NCBI GenBank assembly: GCA_951406725.2 | Contig: OX597819.1 | Location: forward strand, 12,028,001 to 12,092,000 | Direction of reading: 5' to 3' | Source of the DNA: Octopus vulgaris | Taxonomy: Eukaryota | DNA length: 64,000 nt | Shown: positions 6,269 to 57,177 of the stretch, piece by piece | How positions within the stretch are numbered: position 1 is the first letter of the stretch | Layout: each line of letters starts with the position of its first letter | Made by a program: the position numbers and the translations under genes | The notes under the pieces: generated by a model | Databases searched by the model: none | The model's input: the letters and a program-made list of their open reading frames with translations, nothing else | Told to the model about the DNA's origin: nothing

Positions 6269-6664
6269 CTAGCAGTATCGCCCGGCGTTGCTCGGGTTTG
6301 TAAGGGAAATAACTATATAAGCATTTTTAGAGAGTTATAGCCAAAAAATAGCAAAATATGCATTAAAATGGAAAAGAAATTATGGTAATTTTTTTTTTAA
6401 TCGTTGACTCATCGTAGACATTTTTAGAGAGTTACTTCCCTTATGTAATAGCGAAAAAATACATTAAAATGGGAAAAAATGATGGTAATTTTTTTTTTTT
6501 AATCGTAGACTCATCGTAGACGCGCGCTAATACCCAGAAGGGCTCGATATGAATCACGACTATAAGATACCCGGTTTTGGTTAAACTGCACCGCAAAATG
6601 TGGGAGTAGTTAGGAATCTAAATCGTAGGAGACAGACACACAACTTGACTTTTATATATAAAGA
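6269..6664 (-). mobile_element. Non-autonomous Helitron
   Basis: Minus strand 5'-TCTTTATATATAAAAG...CCCGAGCAACGCCGGG hairpin...CTAG-3', inserted between A and T; internal direct repeat of about 95 bp. Confidence 0.8.
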
Positions 6665-6714
6665 TTAGAAACTCTGTAACTATTGAATATTTCTGACTGC
6701 TTGTTATGTTTCAG

Positions 6715-6785
6715 GGTGAAAGACAGCCAGCTGTTGTCAGAGGCCTTGACCGTTGACCCAATCTATCTACAACATCCACACGGAG
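6715..6785 (+). CDS. TDC: Tyrosine decarboxylase exon
   Basis: cag|G GTG..GGA G|gtaaat, 71 nt; VKDSQLLSEALTVDPIYLQHPHG; phases match both neighbours. Confidence 0.92.
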
Positions 6786-6988
6786 GTAAATATTTCTACT
6801 CTTTATTCTGTATATTTATACAACCAGACAACCAAGGAGTCGAATTGCTTGAAATAGCAGCCATTCTCTTAACTCACACCCTACTGCCCTAAACACAAAA
6901 AGACAGAAAAACACACACTGGATAATGTGATCCTAGGTTCGCTTTCTTTCCTTTCTGTTTTTTTAGCTAGGTCTGGTGGAAGAGGTAA

Positions 6989-7207
6989 CTCTCTCTCTCT
7001 CTTTTACTCTTTTACTTGTTTCAGTCATTTGACTGCGGCCATGCTGGAGCACCGCCTTTAGTCGATCAAATCGACCCCAGGACTTATTCTTTGTAAGCCC
7101 AGTCCTTATTCTATCGGTCTCTTTTGCCGAACCGCTAAGTGACGGGGACGTAAACACACCAGCATCGGTTGTCAAGCAATGCCAGGGAGACAAACACAGA
7201 CACACAA

Positions 7208-7238
<31 letters not shown>

Positions 7239-7402
7239 CATATATACGATAGCTTCTTTCAGTTTCCGTCTACCAAATCCACTCACAAGGCATTGGTCGG
7301 CCCGGGGCTATAGCAGAAGACACTTGCCCAAGATGCCACGCAGTGGACTGAACCCGGAACCATGTGGTTCGTAAGCAAGCTACTTACCACACAGCCACTC
7401 AT
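6989..7402 (-). mobile_element. tRNA-derived SINE family B (CORE-like, internal CA/TA microsatellite)
   Basis: tRNA-like head followed by TTGGGCAAGTGTCTTCT; further copies near 31921, 34550, 37880, 41183, 41553, 53280, 58444, 59292 (-) and 53960 (+). Confidence 0.85.
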
Positions 7403-8039
7403 GCTTTTTTTTTTTTTAAATCTGTAGGTCAAAAGGTAAAGATCCGTTTAAAACTTTGTCTTCTAATGTTTACTTTCATTTTATCACAGATCATGTACAA
7501 ATGCTGTTTTCTGATTGTTCAAAAATGATCAAACTTTAAACCTCTGAAACATTTTTCTCAAATTTTCCTCGAATACATGAATCACAAAATTGGATTCTGC
7601 GTGAAAAAATACACCAACATACCAAATTTGAAAATTTTCACTTAATTTTAAAATTTTAATATCTGTGACAGAAAGAGAAAAGATCTCTCTATCTCTTTCA
7701 TTTTTCGCTTTTCTCACGGTAAACTTACCCCTTCTCCATACATTTTACCACTCTCTCTCTCCCCCTCTCTCTCTCTCTCTCTCTCTCACTCACTCTCTGT
7801 AAAAGCTTATAGATAATGGTTTTTTTCGTTTTTGTTTTCCTCGCGGCTTTTCTTCTATGTATTACACCCAATAATATCATTTTCTAAAGCTTCTTTTCCG
7901 TGACTAATTACTTGTTTTTTCTATATTTTATTATATCAACATCACAACCCCTAACATCCACCAAACTTCGCAAAAATCCATCCACCACACCAAACTCCAC
8001 CGAACTCCATCAAACTCTACCACTATCGACGTCGAATAG

Positions 8040-8059
8040 ATAAAGCCATTGATTTCAGG
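8040..8059 (+). CDS. TDC: Tyrosine decarboxylase 20-nt micro-exon (DKAIDFR)
   Basis: tag|ATAAAGCCATTGATTTCAGG|gtaagt; needed to join phase 1 to phase 0 and supplies the conserved D[YF]R before HW. Confidence 0.88.
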
Positions 8060-8918
8060 GTAAGTTGATTTTCTTTTTCTCAAATTTTTTCGTTATCTGA
8101 AAATCATAAATCTTGACATCATCGAATAAATTTGGTCGCTGTTCAAGTTTGACTTCGAGTCAGTCTTGATCGAGATCAATCCCGAACGCTGCTCTTCCCC
8201 CGCTGCCTAAACGATGAAAAAGTAAATATTGGACAATGTAACCTTAAATAAGCTCTTCTTAGAGTCTGTTATAAACCCTACGATTCATGAAGCAGGATCT
8301 TAACCCGATTTCCATGACCTATATAGTGAGTCAGCTAACACCACCACCTATTTCATTATTACCCACAAGGGGCTAAACATAGAGGGGACAAACAAGGACA
8401 GACATAGGTATTAAGTTGATTACACCGACCCCAGTGCGTAACTAGTACTTAATTTATCGACCCCGAAAGGATAAAAGGCAAAGTCGACCTCGGCGGAATT
8501 TGAACTCAGAACGAAACGGCAGACGAAATACCGCTTAGCATTTCGCCCGACGTGCTAACGATTCTGCCAGCTCACCACCACTACCATCCATCGAACGCAA
8601 TGCCGATCCTTTGCAAAGTTAATCTGCCTGCTTTTGCTGAAACTCATCGATAGCAGAGTGAACTGGAGCAACATGAAATGAAGTGTTTTGCTCAAGAACA
8701 CAATGCAACGCCCGGTCTAGGAATCGAAATCACGACCTAACAGTTGTGAGTGCGACAACGTAACACCTAAATCATGCACCTTCACCCTAAATATGTCTGA
8801 AAATGAAAAGGAAGTGAATGTCTTGGCTGAGACGCCCTTAATCAAAAGTCTGGTTTAGCAGAGCCGACTGGAAACTAAACAACACCACCAACGTGTCTTA
8901 GAAATAACATCGAGTTAA

Positions 8919-9482
8919 AGAGTTCCTAAAAGTTCTGCGAGAGTTCCTAAAAGCTCTGCGAGAGTTCCTAAAAGCTCTGCGAGGGTTCTTAAAAGCTCTG
9001 CGTGAGTTCCTAAAAGCTCTGCGAGAGTTCCTAAAAGCTCTGCGAGAGTTCCTAAAAGCTCTACGAGAGTTCCTAAAAGCTCTGCGAGAGTTCCTAAAAG
9101 ATCTACGAGAGTTCCTAAAAGCTCTGCGAGAGTTCCTAAAAGCTCTGCGTGAGTTCCTAAAAGCTCTACGAGAGTTCCTAAAAGCTCTGCGAGAGTTCCT
9201 AAAAGCTCTGCGAGAGTTTCTAAAAGCTCTGCGTGAGTTCCTAAAAGTTCTGCGAGGGTTCTTAAAAGCTCTACGAGAGTTCCTAAAAGCTCTGCGTGAG
9301 TTCCTAAAAGCTCTACGAGAGTTTCTAAAAGCTCTGCGTGAGTTCCTAAAAGTTCTGCGAGGGTTCTTAAAAGCTCTGCGTGAGTTCCTAAAATTTCTGC
9401 GAGGGTTCTTAAAAGCTCTGCGTGCGTTCCTAAAAGCTCTACGAGAGTTCCTAAAAGCTCTGCAAGGGTTCCTAAAAGTTCT
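8919..9482. repeat. 21-bp minisatellite, about 27 copies, intronic
   Basis: Unit AGAGTTCCTAAAAGCTCTGCG with single-base variants. Confidence 0.95.
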
Positions 9483-12702: not shown

Positions 12703-13160
12703 TATACATGCTCACACACGACCCGCATCAGACTCATCTCTCATACTATTATCGAACCGAGAGTCTAACAGTGGTCCTTCTGTAGCACTTACATAGCCTT
12801 ACCTGCCTTTTAGGTCTTCTGGATACCAAAACTTCTCATATGTGTGTATATATTATGCGCGCATTAACAGTGAAATATCGTGTATGCATATATGGTGTGT
12901 ATATGTGTGATACTACTAAGATAAACTAGAACTCAATACATGCTACCATATGCTTTTATTTTTTAATATAAACCCTACGATGATACCAACATCTCGAACT
13001 TAACGGCTTTCATCAAAAGCAGACGTACGTGCGTGTGTGTGTGTGTGTGTGTTCATTATCATATTTACATTTATTCTTGATAATAATGTTCTTTTTTCAT
13101 CTTCTTAATGATATGTTTTTTAGTAATTATTATTTGTATCTTTTTTATTTTATAATGAAG

Positions 13161-13685
13161 GGTCCGAATACTTTAACCCAGAAACTCCTCCGGCAAATCA
13201 ACGAGTCCGGACGTCTTCACATGGTCCCTGCCCTGTTGAACGAACATTACATCATTCGATTTGCCATCTGTGCGCAAAATGCAGACGACAGTGACATCAT
13301 CTATGCATGGCAGACGATCTCAAAAATCGCTGACGAGTTGTTGGCCAGTCGAGAACGAGAATCAAGCGTGCGTGAATCGAGGCGAATTGCTTTGTCCGAC
13401 ACAAGCGAAGAAGGCGAATCGGCTGAAGAAGAAGAAGTTTTTCTCGAATTTGATAAAGAGAATATCTACGACAATCAGCAACTCAACTTCCAGAGGGCTC
13501 GAATGCGTCGCAACCTTTTCCTGCGCATGGTATCTGACCCTAAATCATATAGCCCTCACATGATGAAGTCTTATAGCATTGATGATTCGTCCAGTCGTCT
13601 TCCGAGTGATACACCCAGCGAAACTGGTTCCACTAACAGCACCAAACGTTCGCCGAAAACACCACAACAGGCCACTCCTTTATAA
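13161..13685 (+). CDS. TDC: Tyrosine decarboxylase terminal coding exon with C-terminal extension
   Basis: aag|GGT CCG AAT..TAA; GPNTLTQKLLRQINESGRLHMVPA...IIRFAIC, then FLRMVSDPKSY as in invertebrate TDC tails. Confidence 0.92.
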   Translation, partial: GPNTLTQKLLRQINESGRLHMVPALLNEHYIIRFAICAQNADDSDIIYAWQTISKIADELLASRERESSVRESRRIALSDTSEEGESAEEEEVFLEFDKENIYDNQQLNFQRARMRRNLFLRMVSDPKSYSPHMMKSYSIDDSSSRLPSDTPSETGSTNSTKRSPKTPQQATPL

Positions 13686-15416: not shown

Positions 15417-16090
15417 CAGTTCTATATTTAAGAGATGGGGAATTATGTATGTTAGTTACATTATTTACATTTGACGGATATTTTTCCTCATCTTGTACGG
15501 ATATTTGTACCTCATCATGCAGCTGTGGTAGGTTATACAAAGGCGAAACATGCCGCCCCTTCAAAATAAAGGTAGAGGAACATCGCAAAGCTGTGACACG
15601 AGGAGATATTGATAAATCGAGTATAGCTGTTCATGTATGGAAAAATGGAGACCACCTCCCTCTGTGGGATGAAGTTAAAATAATAGACAGAAAACACCAC
15701 TGGAAAATACGAAAACTAAAAGAAGCAGCACATATGCTAGGACACAACCTCCTAAGCAGACCGAGTGCAGATATGAACAGCATATGGGAACCAGTATTAA
15801 CGAAAGGATAGGAGAATATTAGATTTATAAGCTCTAAAATGTACTCTATAATTGCTCACGGGCATGTGGCGTAGTGGTTAAGAGCGCGGGCTACAAAACC
15901 CAAAATTCCGAGTTCGACCTTAATAATAATAAAAATAATAATGATAGCATCGAAAAATACGTTAGAAATGAGAACCCAGGTTCGAAATTTCCCCCAAGAC
16001 ACCTGATGAAAGCTGGAGGATATATCAACCGAAACGTTGTATTAGCGACAAACAAGATAAGGACAAATATCCGTCAAATATAAATAATTT
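15417..16090 (+). mobile_element. Penelope-like element 3' end: GIY-YIG domain, tRNA-like segment, hammerhead-bearing terminal repeat
   Basis: CSCGRLYKGETCRPFKIKVEEH...SSIAVHVW...RKLKEA; inverted terminal fragment 15417-15497; hammerhead 15999-16042. Confidence 0.8.
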
Positions 16091-17246: not shown

Positions 17247-17451
17247 CTGTTCTATATTTAAGAGATGAAGAATTATCTACATTATTTACATTTGACGGAT
17301 ATTTGTCCTCATTTTGTTTGTTGTTAACACAACGTTTCGGCTGATATGTACCCTCCAGCCTTCATCAGGTGTCTTGGAGAAATTTCGAACCTGGGTTCTC
17401 ATTCCTAAGATATTTTTCGATGTAGTTGTTGTTGTTATTATTATTATTATT

Positions 17452-17484
<33 letters not shown>

Positions 17485-17560
17485 ATTATTATTATTATTA
17501 TTATTATTAGCCATATGCCCGTGGGCATAGCGGTTAAGAGCGCGGGATTCCAGGCAGTGA

Positions 17561-17566
<6 letters not shown>
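17247..17566. mobile_element. Solo terminal-repeat copy of the same PLE family, inverted arrangement
   Basis: Intact hammerhead ACAC-CTGATGA-AGGCTG..CAGCC-GAAACGTT-GTGT at 17327-17372(-). Confidence 0.75.
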
Positions 17567-39919: not shown

Positions 39920-40475
39920 CATTATTTACATTATTCACAATTGACGGATATTTGTCCTCATCTTGTTTGTTGTTAACACAACGTTTCGGCTGATATACCC
40001 TCCAGCCTTCATCAGGTGTCTCGGGGAAATTTCGAACCTGGTTCTCATTCTTAAGGTATTTTACGATGTTGTTGTTGTTGTTATTATTAACCACTATGCC
40101 ATATGCCCACGAGCATATGACATAGTGATTAAGAGCGCAGGCTACTAACCCCAAGATTTTGAGTTCGATTCCAGGCTGTAACCTGGAGGAGGAGGGCGGC
40201 GGTGACAACAACATTGAAAAATACCTTAGGAATGAGAACCCAGGTTTGAAATTTCCCCAAGACACCTGATGAAGGCTGGAGGGTATGAACCAATGAGGAG
40301 GCTTTTTGCTGTCATGCAGCATCATACTTTTTACAAAAACATCATTGGTTTGGGGAGAGCAACTATTCTGAGGATGTTCTTGATTGTTGCAGTTCTATAT
40401 TTAAGAGATGAGGAATTATGTACATTATTTACATTTGACGGATATTTTGTCCTCATCTTGTTTGTTGTTAACACA
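39920..40475. mobile_element. PLE terminal repeats, inverted plus direct, with tRNA-like head and hammerhead
   Basis: Intact hammerhead at 39976-40019(-); tRNA-like head 40105-40185(+); partial hammerhead at about 40265. Confidence 0.75.
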
Positions 40476-55407: not shown

Positions 55408-56702
55408 GTTTGTAGCCCTTCTGCTACTCATCCTAACAGAGATTTAACTATCGTTGCTACTAAAGATGAACTCTGGCTTCTTCAGATGAATGAATGTTAA
55501 AGAAAAACCTAACAAGAAAATCTGTTTGAAGATCTACGTGTCATTACAGCTTGGGAATTATCAATAATGGTGAAAGAAATTGTTGGTTAGGTCACCCCTG
55601 ATTGAGCAAACTTATGATGGAAGGCATTCTGTGATCATCTCATCTTTTTAGGTGTACTTAATTTCATTTTACAATAATAATAATCAGGTTAGTTGTAGGG
55701 TATGATTTTAAAAGGATTTAGCTGCTCTTTCTAGAAAATTGAGTGGTTACATAAAGACTCCCGTAGTCTCTGTACTCTAGAAAACACCTGAGAAGTACAT
55801 TCTGTACATGGCCTGATCTAAAACTACCTGACAGATCTATCATATAGTGTATACCACATGACTGGCACCCATGCTGGGGGCACATAAAAAACACCACTCG
55901 AGCGTGGTCGATGCCAGTCCCTCTGCACTGGCTCCCATGCTGGTGGCATGTAAAATACACCATAAAGACGTGGTCAATGCCAGTGCCGCCTGACTGGCTC
56001 CCCTGCCAATGGCATGTAAAAAGCACCATTCAAGAGTGGTCAATGCCAGTACTGTCTGACTGGCCCTTATACCGGTGCCACATAAAAAGCACTCACTACA
56101 CTCTGCTGAATGGTTGGCGTTAGGAAGGGCATCCAGTTGTAGAAACCTTGCCAGATCAGATTGGAGCCTGGTGCAGCCTTCTAGCTCTCCAGACGTCAGT
56201 CGAACTGTCCAACCCATGCCAGCATGGGAAGCAGACATTAAACGATGATGATGAGGATATATTCTGTCTTGTATCATTACTGTATGCTGCTGCCGCTAAT
56301 GGTAGTGATGATGAATCTTCCTCTGCTAATGACATTGTGCTATAATCCCCATTACTGTTGATGGTGTTCCTAACTCTGCTATATCGTGGACATTTATAAA
56401 TTGTGCTCATGTAGAGTCATTTATCATCATCATCATTTAACATCTGTACTAGCACAAGCTAGTAACCCCAAGATTCTGAGTTCAATTCCAGGCAGTGACC
56501 TGAATAATAATAATAATAATAATGATACTAATAATAATAATAATAACAACAACATCGAAAAATACCTTAGGAATGAAAACCTGGGTTCAAAATTTCCCCA
56601 AGACACTTGATGAAAGCTGGAGAGGATATATCAGCCGAAACGTTGTGTTAACAACAAACAAATATCCATCAAATGTAAATAATGTACATAATTCCTCATC
56701 TC

Positions 56703-56930
56703 TTAACCCTTTCGTTACTATATTTATTTTGAGATGATCTGTGTTTCTTTCAATTACTTTAAATACAACAAAGAATTTAGTAAAATAACTTAGTTATCAT
56801 TAAGCTAGTGTTAGGAACATAAATTGTGACAAAGGTTTGGTGGGAGATTTTAATTTAAAACTTATGAAAACAAGACATTTGTACTCAGAACCAGAGCCGG
56901 TTTCAGTGGGGTTGGTAACGAAAGGGTTAA
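56703..56930. mobile_element. piggyBac-type MITE nested in a PLE terminal repeat
   Basis: TTAA-CCCTTTCGTTAC ... GTAACGAAAGGG-TTAA. Confidence 0.88.
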
Positions 56931-57177
56931 ATATAGAACTGAATCTCTCTAAATTGTCCTCCAGAAAAAATGGATCTCTGCTTTGTGGATGTCCAATACA
57001 GTTACTGCCTCACTAACCTGCAAGCTTGAATATTCACCTAGAAATGTTGCCCATCTATCAGATGTGGATGGAGATGTTGTCTGTATATCATCAATGTTGG
57101 ATTCATTCAGGGCTGCAGTTTAGATACAGATATCAGTGGTGGCAAGTTATCCCTCATAAGGACTACGATAGTATTAT

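What the first reader, a model, noticed from the sequence alone, without database searches (positions are those of the whole stretch)
15417..16090. Penelope terminal repeat fusing a tRNA-like Pol III head, an (AAT)n spacer and a hammerhead ribozyme
Seen: right after the GIY-YIG stop comes TGGCGTAGTGGTTAAGAGCGCGGGCTAC..GAGTTCGA (A-box, anticodon-like arm, B-box), then (AAT)n, then a hammerhead and a conserved tail. The same module recurs without any ORF near 17247-17566, 39920-40475 and 56455-56940. In two of these the arms are inverted and meet at the tRNA 5' end (TGCCCGTGGGCA; TATGCCCACGAGCATATG). Known: Schistosoma SMalpha repeats join tRNA-derived promoters to hammerheads, and PLE termini carry hammerheads. 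Inference: a PLE that captured a Pol III promoter and spawns non-autonomous, self-cleaving SINE/retrozyme-like RNAs. This is the best candidate here for an undescribed system; novelty is unverified.
Basis: partly seen in the sequence, partly recalled or inferred. Interest (0 to 1): 0.75.

Follow-up and report, generated by a model that had tools for sequence, protein, structure and literature searches.

The report
Penelope retrotransposon with tRNA-type promoter
This is a broken copy of a very common protein-coding jumping gene whose repeat unit starts with a tRNA-like promoter and carries a predicted self-cutting RNA inside its reading frame; the element is likely read by RNA polymerase III, and the many short SINE-like copies are likely by-products of the same transcript, not a separate element.

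Summary
15417-16088 is a 5'-truncated Penelope/Poseidon-type element with an inverted tail arm. The tRNA-like head is integral: 59 of 63 copies that reach the endonuclease stop carry it. The module is not a non-coding terminus. It is the start of the next tandem unit: head, (AAT)n, ATG, and an 835-codon frame running through a minimal type I hammerhead. About 56,000 insertions exist (29,000-98,000), mostly without ORF body. They show no diagnostic differences from ORF-linked copies, so no separate SINE subfamily was found. Three results point to Pol III transcription of the whole unit. First, 5' ends pile up at the tRNA +1 region (22 of 29 arms, about 25 times the upstream rate). Second, two copies that run into the ORF begin there. 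Third, the 2.65-kb unit has no sense-strand T4 run, while two control Penelope-like families have 10 each. The main rival is a hairpin at the same place, a known Penelope boundary feature. Pol III transcription and cleavage are untested, and the hammerhead in this copy is damaged. The scan noted this family before on other pieces of this genome. Not found in the papers searched; Repbase and Dfam could not be checked.

The parts
15417..15496 (-). Inverted arm: 3' part of the terminal module ending at the long ('tail') end
   Evidence: blastn to the family majority, positions 106-176, 86%; the long/short end rule
15497..15517 (.). Junction filler that repeats part of the inverted tail
   Evidence: sequence; origin by template switching is inference
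15518..15811 (+). C-terminal 97 codons of the GIY-YIG endonuclease plus stop, of a 5'-truncated Penelope/Poseidon-type ORF
   Evidence: 150 scored genome matches at 79-100% identity of 3905 candidates; contiguous with RT motifs in other copies; RVT_1 E 2.7e-6, below its cut-off
15812..15852 (+). 41-nt spacer (3' UTR) between stop and hairpin
   Evidence: conserved in EN- and RT-anchored loci
15853..15864 (+). 12-nt palindrome/hairpin overlapping the tRNA +1 position; centre of many inverted junctions
   Evidence: majority form folds at -4.6 kcal/mol, -7.1 with context
15860..15919 (+). tRNA-derived head, A-box 15867-15877, B-box 15910-15919 (3' end shortened in this copy)
   Evidence: aligns to the genome's own tRNAs, best tRNA-Arg(TCT) 52/78 columns, z 7.9 against shuffles; not called by ARAGORN or Rfam
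15921..15947 (+). (AAT/AAC)n spacer of variable length in the 5' leader
   Evidence: 29 of 30 head-anchored loci
15948..15997 (+). Leader with the ORF start codon at 15968-15970 and the first codons
   Evidence: frame open from this ATG for 835 codons in the family majority
15998..16043 (+). Minimal type I hammerhead inside the reading frame; predicted cut after 16038; three stem mismatches in this copy
   Evidence: core, stems I and II and loopless palindromic stem III checked
16044..16088 (+). ORF 5' segment up to about the short 3' end (inferred RT start site)
17249..17564 (.). Short copy: minus arm with intact hammerhead (17322-17375), inverted junction at the hairpin, partial plus head followed by a long (AAT)n
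39921..40475 (.). Short head-to-head copy with intact minus-arm hammerhead (39971-40021), plus a further inverted tail piece
56458..56940 (+). Short copy starting inside the head; hammerhead core mutated; tail interrupted by an unrelated inverted-repeat insertion

Best explanation
This is a 5'-truncated copy of a Penelope/Poseidon-type retrotransposon whose repeat unit begins with a tRNA-derived A/B-box head, followed by (AAT)n and an 835-codon RT-endonuclease frame that runs through a minimal hammerhead, and the head is likely the element's own RNA polymerase III promoter. Shown: the order of parts, head-ORF linkage at both ends, two fixed 3' ends, the 5'-end pile-up at the head start, and no sense T4 run in the unit. 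Inferred: Pol III starts 7-14 nt upstream of the A-box of a tandem master and reads through the terminator-free unit into the next one. The RT starts internally at one of two sites about 130 and 155 nt into the ORF, as shown for the anole element. Starting in the second unit gives ORF-bearing copies with a 3' head, like this one. Starting in the first unit runs off the RNA 5' end after about 300 nt and gives the SINE-like short copies, often folded back into head-to-head pairs. The hammerhead is predicted to cut only as a dimer or with protein help; a cut would remove head and start codon, so it would act as an off-switch or processing step, and uncut RNA would be the template.
For: Linkage: 59 of 63 distinct endonuclease ends carry the head within 170 nt (one of the 4 misses, L005, has it behind an insertion). 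Tail-to-ORF continuity in most of 30 ORF-start loci; L370 is a true tandem; L345 and L367 run from head into ORF body and begin about 9 and 14 nt upstream of the A-box with unrelated flank. Frame through the ribozyme: the majority is open for 835 codons from the leader ATG, and homolog P0003 (55% identical) has matching residues over the ribozyme region. 3' ends at two sites 25 nt apart; 40 of 44 classifiable inverted pairs have one long and one short end. 5' ends: of 90 hammerhead-anchored arms 45 reach the head and 29 reach the A-box; 22 of these end within 24 nt upstream (0.051 per nt) against 3 ends in 1479 nt further up (0.002 per nt), p 7e-12; non-inverted copies 7 of 9, p 0.04. The modes are -7, which is tRNA position 1, and -14. 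T4: 0 in 2652 nt; expected in the ORF 2.9 by synonymous shuffle (p 0.029) or 5.0 by codon resampling (p 0.003); two other Penelope-like families with the same T content have 10 against 10.9-11.5 and 10 against 8.3-9.0 expected. Same source: no non-CpG diagnostic site between 58 long and 65 short arms over 258 positions.
Against: The pile-up coincides with a hairpin that lies in the most stable 30-nt windows of the upstream template, and palindromes at the 5' end of Penelope repeats without any reported tRNA head are published (PMC3846280). The T4 test is modest (p 0.03 by the stricter null), uses a majority sequence against single young control copies, and both controls belong to another clade. 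No copy with head, whole ORF and downstream head was seen in one piece (ORF-start loci were read only 1.5 kb downstream). A and B boxes are not clearly better kept than the rest of the head among copies (92-94% against 90-92%), as expected under neutral decay but no support. How an uncapped Pol III RNA would be translated is unexplained. The sample is biased to copies with an exact 41-mer, all from contig C1, and some arms with internal deletions were classed as ending in the spacer or leader.
Confidence: 0.55

Rival explanations
1. Ordinary Penelope element with a passenger head. A tRNA or SINE head was once captured into the terminal repeat but is not the working promoter. The element is read by Pol II or by read-through, and short copies end at the head because the hairpin there stalls the RT or primes fold-back.
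For: Hairpin at exactly the pile-up, in the most stable local windows. Palindromes at pLTR 5' ends and at inverted junctions are described for Adineta elements (PMC3846280). Drosophila Penelope has a LINE-like internal promoter (PMC2377424 abstract). A Pol II RNA is easier to translate (established knowledge).
Against: The commonest end (-7) is tRNA position 1, in the middle of the hairpin, and not its 3' edge where a stall would fall (inference). The pile-up also holds in non-inverted copies (7 of 9) and where the second arm ends far from the head. Hairpins of similar strength downstream (stem II -6.7, leader -7.1 kcal/mol) give no comparable stop. It does not explain the missing T4 runs.
Confidence: 0.3
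2. One reading: short copies are a true SINE or retrozyme family that is transcribed by Pol III from dispersed copies and re-amplified in trans by the Penelope protein.
For: Short copies hold promoter and both RT start sites, so they could be templates. 10 of 12 insertions in 600 kb of evenly spaced genome stretches lack the endonuclease. Non-autonomous Penelope derivatives are published (PMC8557442; preprint 10.64898/2026.07.22.740005).
Against: No diagnostic sites and similar divergence (5.9% short, 6.8% long). Half of the hammerhead arms (45 of 90) were classed as not reaching the head. No tandem arrays of the short unit beyond partial dimers. In the anole element the protein needs ORF sequence beyond the RT start sites (PMC11167929), which copies ending at the tail may lack.
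Confidence: 0.12
3. An independent host SINE inserted by chance behind the endonuclease in this copy.
For: The genome is rich in tRNA-derived SINEs.
Against: Fixed position in 59 of 63 copies. The head is only 54-67% identical to the tRNAs and other SINE heads sampled, and no cluster joins it to another body.
Confidence: 0.02

Closest known systems
Penelope/Poseidon elements, e.g. Poseidon_Ac of the green anole (PMC11167929; parts 1-2 of 4 read) and Adineta Pen2/Pen3 (PMC3846280; passages read)
   Same: Single ORF with RT and C-terminal GIY-YIG; repeat that includes the ORF start; hammerhead overlapping the ORF start; two 3' ends giving a one-sided tail; partial tandems and inverted 5' arms; palindrome at the repeat's 5' end.
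   Different: No tRNA-derived head or A/B boxes in the passages read (0 hits for 'tRNA' in PMC3846280 and PMC4209133); the promoters described are TATA/Inr-like or LINE-like. Here the unit lacks T4 runs and 5' ends pile up at tRNA +1.
Minimal type I hammerheads of animal PLEs (Cervera and De la Pena 2014, PMC4209133; passages read)
   Same: Short helix I, 6-bp helix II, extra base between positions 9 and 10.1, G10.1-C11.1 pair, palindromic 15.2-16.2 without loop 3.
   Different: Nothing in the ribozyme itself; cleavage is not tested here.
Schistosoma SM-alpha / Sj-alpha SINE-like repeats (as reviewed in PMC6765202; passages read; the original paper was not held)
   Same: Pol III-type promoter upstream of a hammerhead in a high-copy repeat.
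   Different: Those are non-coding, often tandem, with a ribozyme shown to cut. Here the same layout is the 5' end of a protein-coding element.
Animal non-LTR retrozymes (PMC7229834, passages read; bioRxiv 10.64898/2026.07.22.740005, parts 1-2 of 5 read plus a term search)
   Same: Type I hammerhead, about 300 nt, related to Penelope repeats.
   Different: Retrozymes are head-to-tail tandems that yield circles. These copies are mostly single or head-to-head. The preprint has no hit for tRNA, promoter or Pol III.
Small-RNA-promoter elements outside SINEs: Cassandra, Helenus, Ajax (PMC10886601; search listing and passages)
   Same: A retroelement terminal repeat with a captured 5S- or tRNA-like sequence.
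   Different: Those are non-autonomous LTR elements; the paper has no hit for Penelope.
Octopus tRNA-derived SINEs of Ohshima and Okada 1994 (not held; title seen in reference lists; OR2 named as a CORE SINE in PMC4758252)
   Same: tRNA-derived repeats in what I take to be the same animal group (inference).
   Different: Could not be compared. One of the three families might be this module described without its Penelope context.

Membership tests
Penelope-like element, Penelope/Poseidon type | Single ORF, RT followed by C-terminal GIY-YIG endonuclease | tested here: met
   569-aa natural open frame with RT motifs and endonuclease; RVT_1 27.7 bits, under the 29.6 cut-off; 2980 homologs. Pfam GIY-YIG does not hit this family; the domain call rests on motif and position, and K stands in place of I in the second motif.
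Penelope-like element, Penelope/Poseidon type | Pseudo-LTR from partial tandems, inverted 5' arms, one-sided tail | tested here: met
   55 of 90 loci inverted; 40 of 44 pairs long/short; tandem L370
Penelope-like element, Penelope/Poseidon type | Clade placement by RT phylogeny | not tested
   No tree was built. Assignment rests on domain order and on the lack of the Cys-rich linker seen in the control families; that this linker marks Neptune is recalled.
Minimal type I hammerhead | Conserved core, helices I and II, palindromic loopless helix III | tested here: met
   Met in the majority and in copies at 17322 and 39971; damaged at 15998 and 56600. The most variable non-CpG position between stems is the free N7 (15 of 61 copies A; C variant in run X19).
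Minimal type I hammerhead | Self-cleavage | not testable with these tools
   Needs an in vitro assay
tRNA-derived SINE | tRNA-related head with A and B boxes at tRNA spacing | tested here: met
   (13 tRNA sequences compared, z 2.3-7.9; the donor tRNA is not settled)
tRNA-derived SINE | Independent non-autonomous lineage with its own source copies | tested here: not met
   No diagnostic differences from ORF-linked copies; minor subfamilies are not excluded at this sample size
tRNA-derived SINE | Transcription by Pol III | tested here: inconclusive
   Indirect support; RNA-seq uninformative
Non-LTR retrozyme | Head-to-tail tandem units each with a hammerhead | tested here: not met
   Mostly single or head-to-head; only occasional partial dimers such as L070 and L107
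Non-LTR retrozyme | Unit-length circular RNA | not testable with these tools
   No suitable reads

The most novel reading that the evidence does not exclude
An autonomous, protein-coding retrotransposon that replaced its Pol II promoter with a captured tRNA-type promoter and purged Pol III terminators from its whole 2.7-kb unit, so that an RT-endonuclease mRNA is made by Pol III, with a hammerhead inside the first codons as a switch; its tens of thousands of run-off cDNAs look like a SINE and show a route by which SINE-like and SM-alpha-like elements arise from Penelope elements.
Probability: 0.45. Interest if true: 0.8.

Novelty: new variant of a known kind. Interest (0 to 1): 0.6.

Why it matters
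If true, it is a natural case of a long protein-coding RNA made by Pol III in an animal, which raises the question of how an uncapped RNA is translated. It would give Penelope biology a mappable transcription start, since the short insertions record the RNA 5' end, and a direct test of what the hammerhead does. It would link Penelope termini to Pol III-plus-hammerhead repeats such as SM-alpha. It also warns annotators that a large 'SINE' family in this genome is a Penelope by-product.

Tried and rejected
Rfam and ARAGORN find neither head nor ribozyme. Free folding of single copies gives z of -1.3 to +0.7, no support on its own. Covariation was not tested, since the copies descend from one or a few masters. 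The run search listed no holder on record as RNA. Three raw RNA-seq runs of one study (6% of each read) gave 6,297-9,055 reads with both mate directions about equal and no place where many molecules begin or end; this fits passenger transcription or unstranded libraries and says nothing on Pol III or cleavage. Contig depths cannot rank parts and were not used as copy numbers. A search for a headless sister family with homolog P0046 returned, in the 30 loci fetched, only this family, so the time of capture is undated. No PDB sequence matches the ORF. The idea that the first-strand arm always carries the long end was dropped after reading the junctions. That the spacer is a decayed inverted head is a visual impression only. 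Literature searches that showed no Penelope element with a tRNA head or Pol III promoter: (listings seen; only the papers named under Closest known systems, plus passages of PMC8557442, PMC13282606, PMC9223172 and the abstract of PMC2377424, were opened). Repbase, Dfam, SINEBase entries, most subscription papers and all supplements were not seen and may already hold this family.

Full report
Setting. The window is G000:C6:12028001-12092000 of a 2.8-Gb animal genome; I take it to be an octopus, by inference only. The finding lies 1.7 kb behind the last exon of a decarboxylase-like gene.

Observation. Reading left to right: an inverted tail arm (15417-15496), a 21-nt filler, the last 97 codons of an endonuclease with stop (15518-15811), a 41-nt spacer, a 12-nt palindrome, a tRNA-like head with A-box (15867) and B-box (15910), (AAT)n, a leader, a hammerhead (15998-16043) and 45 further bases. 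ARAGORN and Rfam miss head and ribozyme. Exact 41- and 28-mers of ribozyme and head occur 1117 and 852 times, reversed controls 0. Sixty evenly spaced 10-kb stretches hold 12 insertions, 2 with endonuclease, or about 56,000 genome-wide (95% range 29,000-98,000). Copies are about 6-7% from the majority, so the burst is old, and no intact full ORF was seen among the scored hits.

The element. Upstream of the endonuclease other copies carry a Penelope-type RT in the same frame. There is no Cys-rich linker, unlike the two control families, which points to Penelope/Poseidon; no tree was built. 3' ends fall at two sites 25 nt apart. Of 90 hammerhead-anchored loci 55 have an inverted partner, and 40 of the 44 pairs with both ends classifiable have one long and one short end. 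That is the one-sided tail of Penelope elements (PMC8557442, passages), which in the anole element reflects two internal RT start sites (PMC11167929, parts 1-2 of 4).

The head is integral. 59 of 63 distinct endonuclease ends have it within 170 nt; 29 of 30 head-anchored loci go on into (AAT)n and 25 of 30 into the ribozyme region. It aligns with the genome's own tRNAs, best tRNA-Arg(TCT) at 52 of 78 columns (z 7.9; 13 sequences compared), and about as well with three other SINE heads. It is therefore tRNA-derived, of unsettled donor, and not a copy of a sampled host SINE. Contigs under four organism labels show the same endonuclease-spacer-hairpin link and the same two 3' ends.

The module is the start of the unit, not a non-coding end. 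An ATG in the leader (window 15968) opens a frame through the ribozyme and tail. Loci anchored on the ORF start show tail and ORF body to be continuous, and L370 is a true tandem. The majority frame is open for 835 codons. Homolog P0003 has matching residues across the ribozyme, so the overlap is old, and the anole element also starts its ORF in the ribozyme.

Ribozyme. The majority and two window copies have a full core, a 5-pair helix I, a 6-pair helix II, the extra base before 10.1 and a loopless palindromic helix III, as in the minimal PLE hammerheads that need dimers and cut weakly (PMC4209133, passages). The focal copy has three stem mismatches and is probably dead (inference). Variation between copies and organisms is highest at the free N7 position. 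Cleavage is untested.

Where do copies begin? One arm per locus was traced upstream from the ribozyme. 16 of 90 end in the leader and 29 in the (AAT)n (some of these are internally deleted arms); 45 reach the head and 29 the A-box. Of these 29, 22 end within 24 nt upstream of the A-box (0.051 per nt), 3 end in the next 326 nt (0.002 per nt; p 7e-12) and 4 run beyond; the rate inside the head is 0.014. Counting all 75 anchored arms, the modes are -7, which is tRNA position 1, and -14. Non-inverted copies show it too (7 of 9, p 0.04). Of 30 ORF-start loci 4 reach the head, and two of these, L345 and L367, begin at about -9 and -14 next to unrelated DNA, so ORF-containing templates also began there. 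The sample is biased to copies with an exact 41-mer on contig C1.

One source. 58 long and 65 short arms were compared at 258 positions. The only strong difference is a CpG at the alignment edge; three non-CpG polymorphisms segregate alike. The short copies are best read as products of the same masters.

Terminators. Pol III stops at runs of four or more T (established knowledge). The 2652-nt majority unit has none on the sense strand, with 14 runs of exactly three and 31 runs of four or more A. Expected in the ORF: 2.9 by synonymous shuffle (p 0.029), 5.0 by codon resampling (p 0.003). An earlier, shorter build gave p 0.09 for its longest open stretch. Two other Penelope-like families with 22-23% T have 10 runs each, matching expectation. 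This is suggestive, not proof.

Against. The palindrome at the pile-up lies in the most stable local windows, and palindromes mark the 5' ends of Adineta Penelope repeats (PMC3846280, passages), so a structural stop is a live rival. RNA-seq gave no strand or end information. No copy with head, whole ORF and downstream head was seen in one piece. Translation of a Pol III RNA is unexplained.

Model and odds. Penelope/Poseidon-type element with an integral tRNA-derived 5' leader and short copies from the same source: about 0.9. Head as working Pol III promoter: about 0.55. Passenger head plus hairpin stop: 0.3. Self-propagating SINE: 0.12.

Known and new. Hammerheads in Penelope repeats, Penelope-derived retrozymes and Pol III-plus-hammerhead repeats in Schistosoma (review passages) are in print. 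Nine searches showed no Penelope element with a tRNA-derived promoter. A 2026 octopus repeat annotation lists Penelope and many unclassified SINE families and has no hit for hammerhead (PMC13282606, passages). The 1994 octopus SINE paper, Repbase, Dfam and supplements could not be seen. This scan noted what appears to be the same family before on other pieces of this genome (unchecked AI notes, not counted as support), and one tRNA-Gly case in another genome that I did not test. Verdict: new variant of a known kind, interest 0.6.

Noticed in passing
window 56707-56925: A roughly 220-bp element with terminal inverted repeats starting CCC and TTAA on both sides interrupts the tail of the short copy; it looks like a piggyBac-type MITE (label recalled; sequence).
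   Followed up: no
window 13158-13682 (+): Last coding exon of an aromatic amino acid (DOPA/histidine/tyrosine) decarboxylase-like gene, E 1e-9 to DOPA decarboxylase; the element lies 1.7 kb behind its stop.
   Followed up: partly
L076, L084, L086, L087, L089, L125, L131, L151, L157, L160, L165: 11 of 18 non-inverted arms classed as ending in the spacer join the (AAT)n tails of three other recurring repeats. The element's own (AAT)n may anneal to genomic (AAT)n to finish integration; the anole enzyme prefers ATT (PMC11167929).
   Followed up: partly
L343-L372: Many ORF-start copies carry only 150-250 nt of ORF body and then jump back into the terminal module, with ends clustered near 150-170 and 230-250 (the query itself sets the lower bound). 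These may be further RT start sites or RNA ends.
   Followed up: no
L271-L300 and L373-L392: Two young Penelope-like families with a Cys-rich linker and many intact 780-810-codon frames; used here only as controls.
   Followed up: partly
runs X15, X17, X18, X19 laid on L016:1400-2200: Contigs under four organism labels (three studies) cover endonuclease, head, ribozyme and tail, stop at the same two 3' ends, and continue from the endonuclease end into spacer and hairpin; X19 has its own variants.
   Followed up: partly
L246: A cluster of seven tRNA-Cys-like genes within 3 kb.
   Followed up: no
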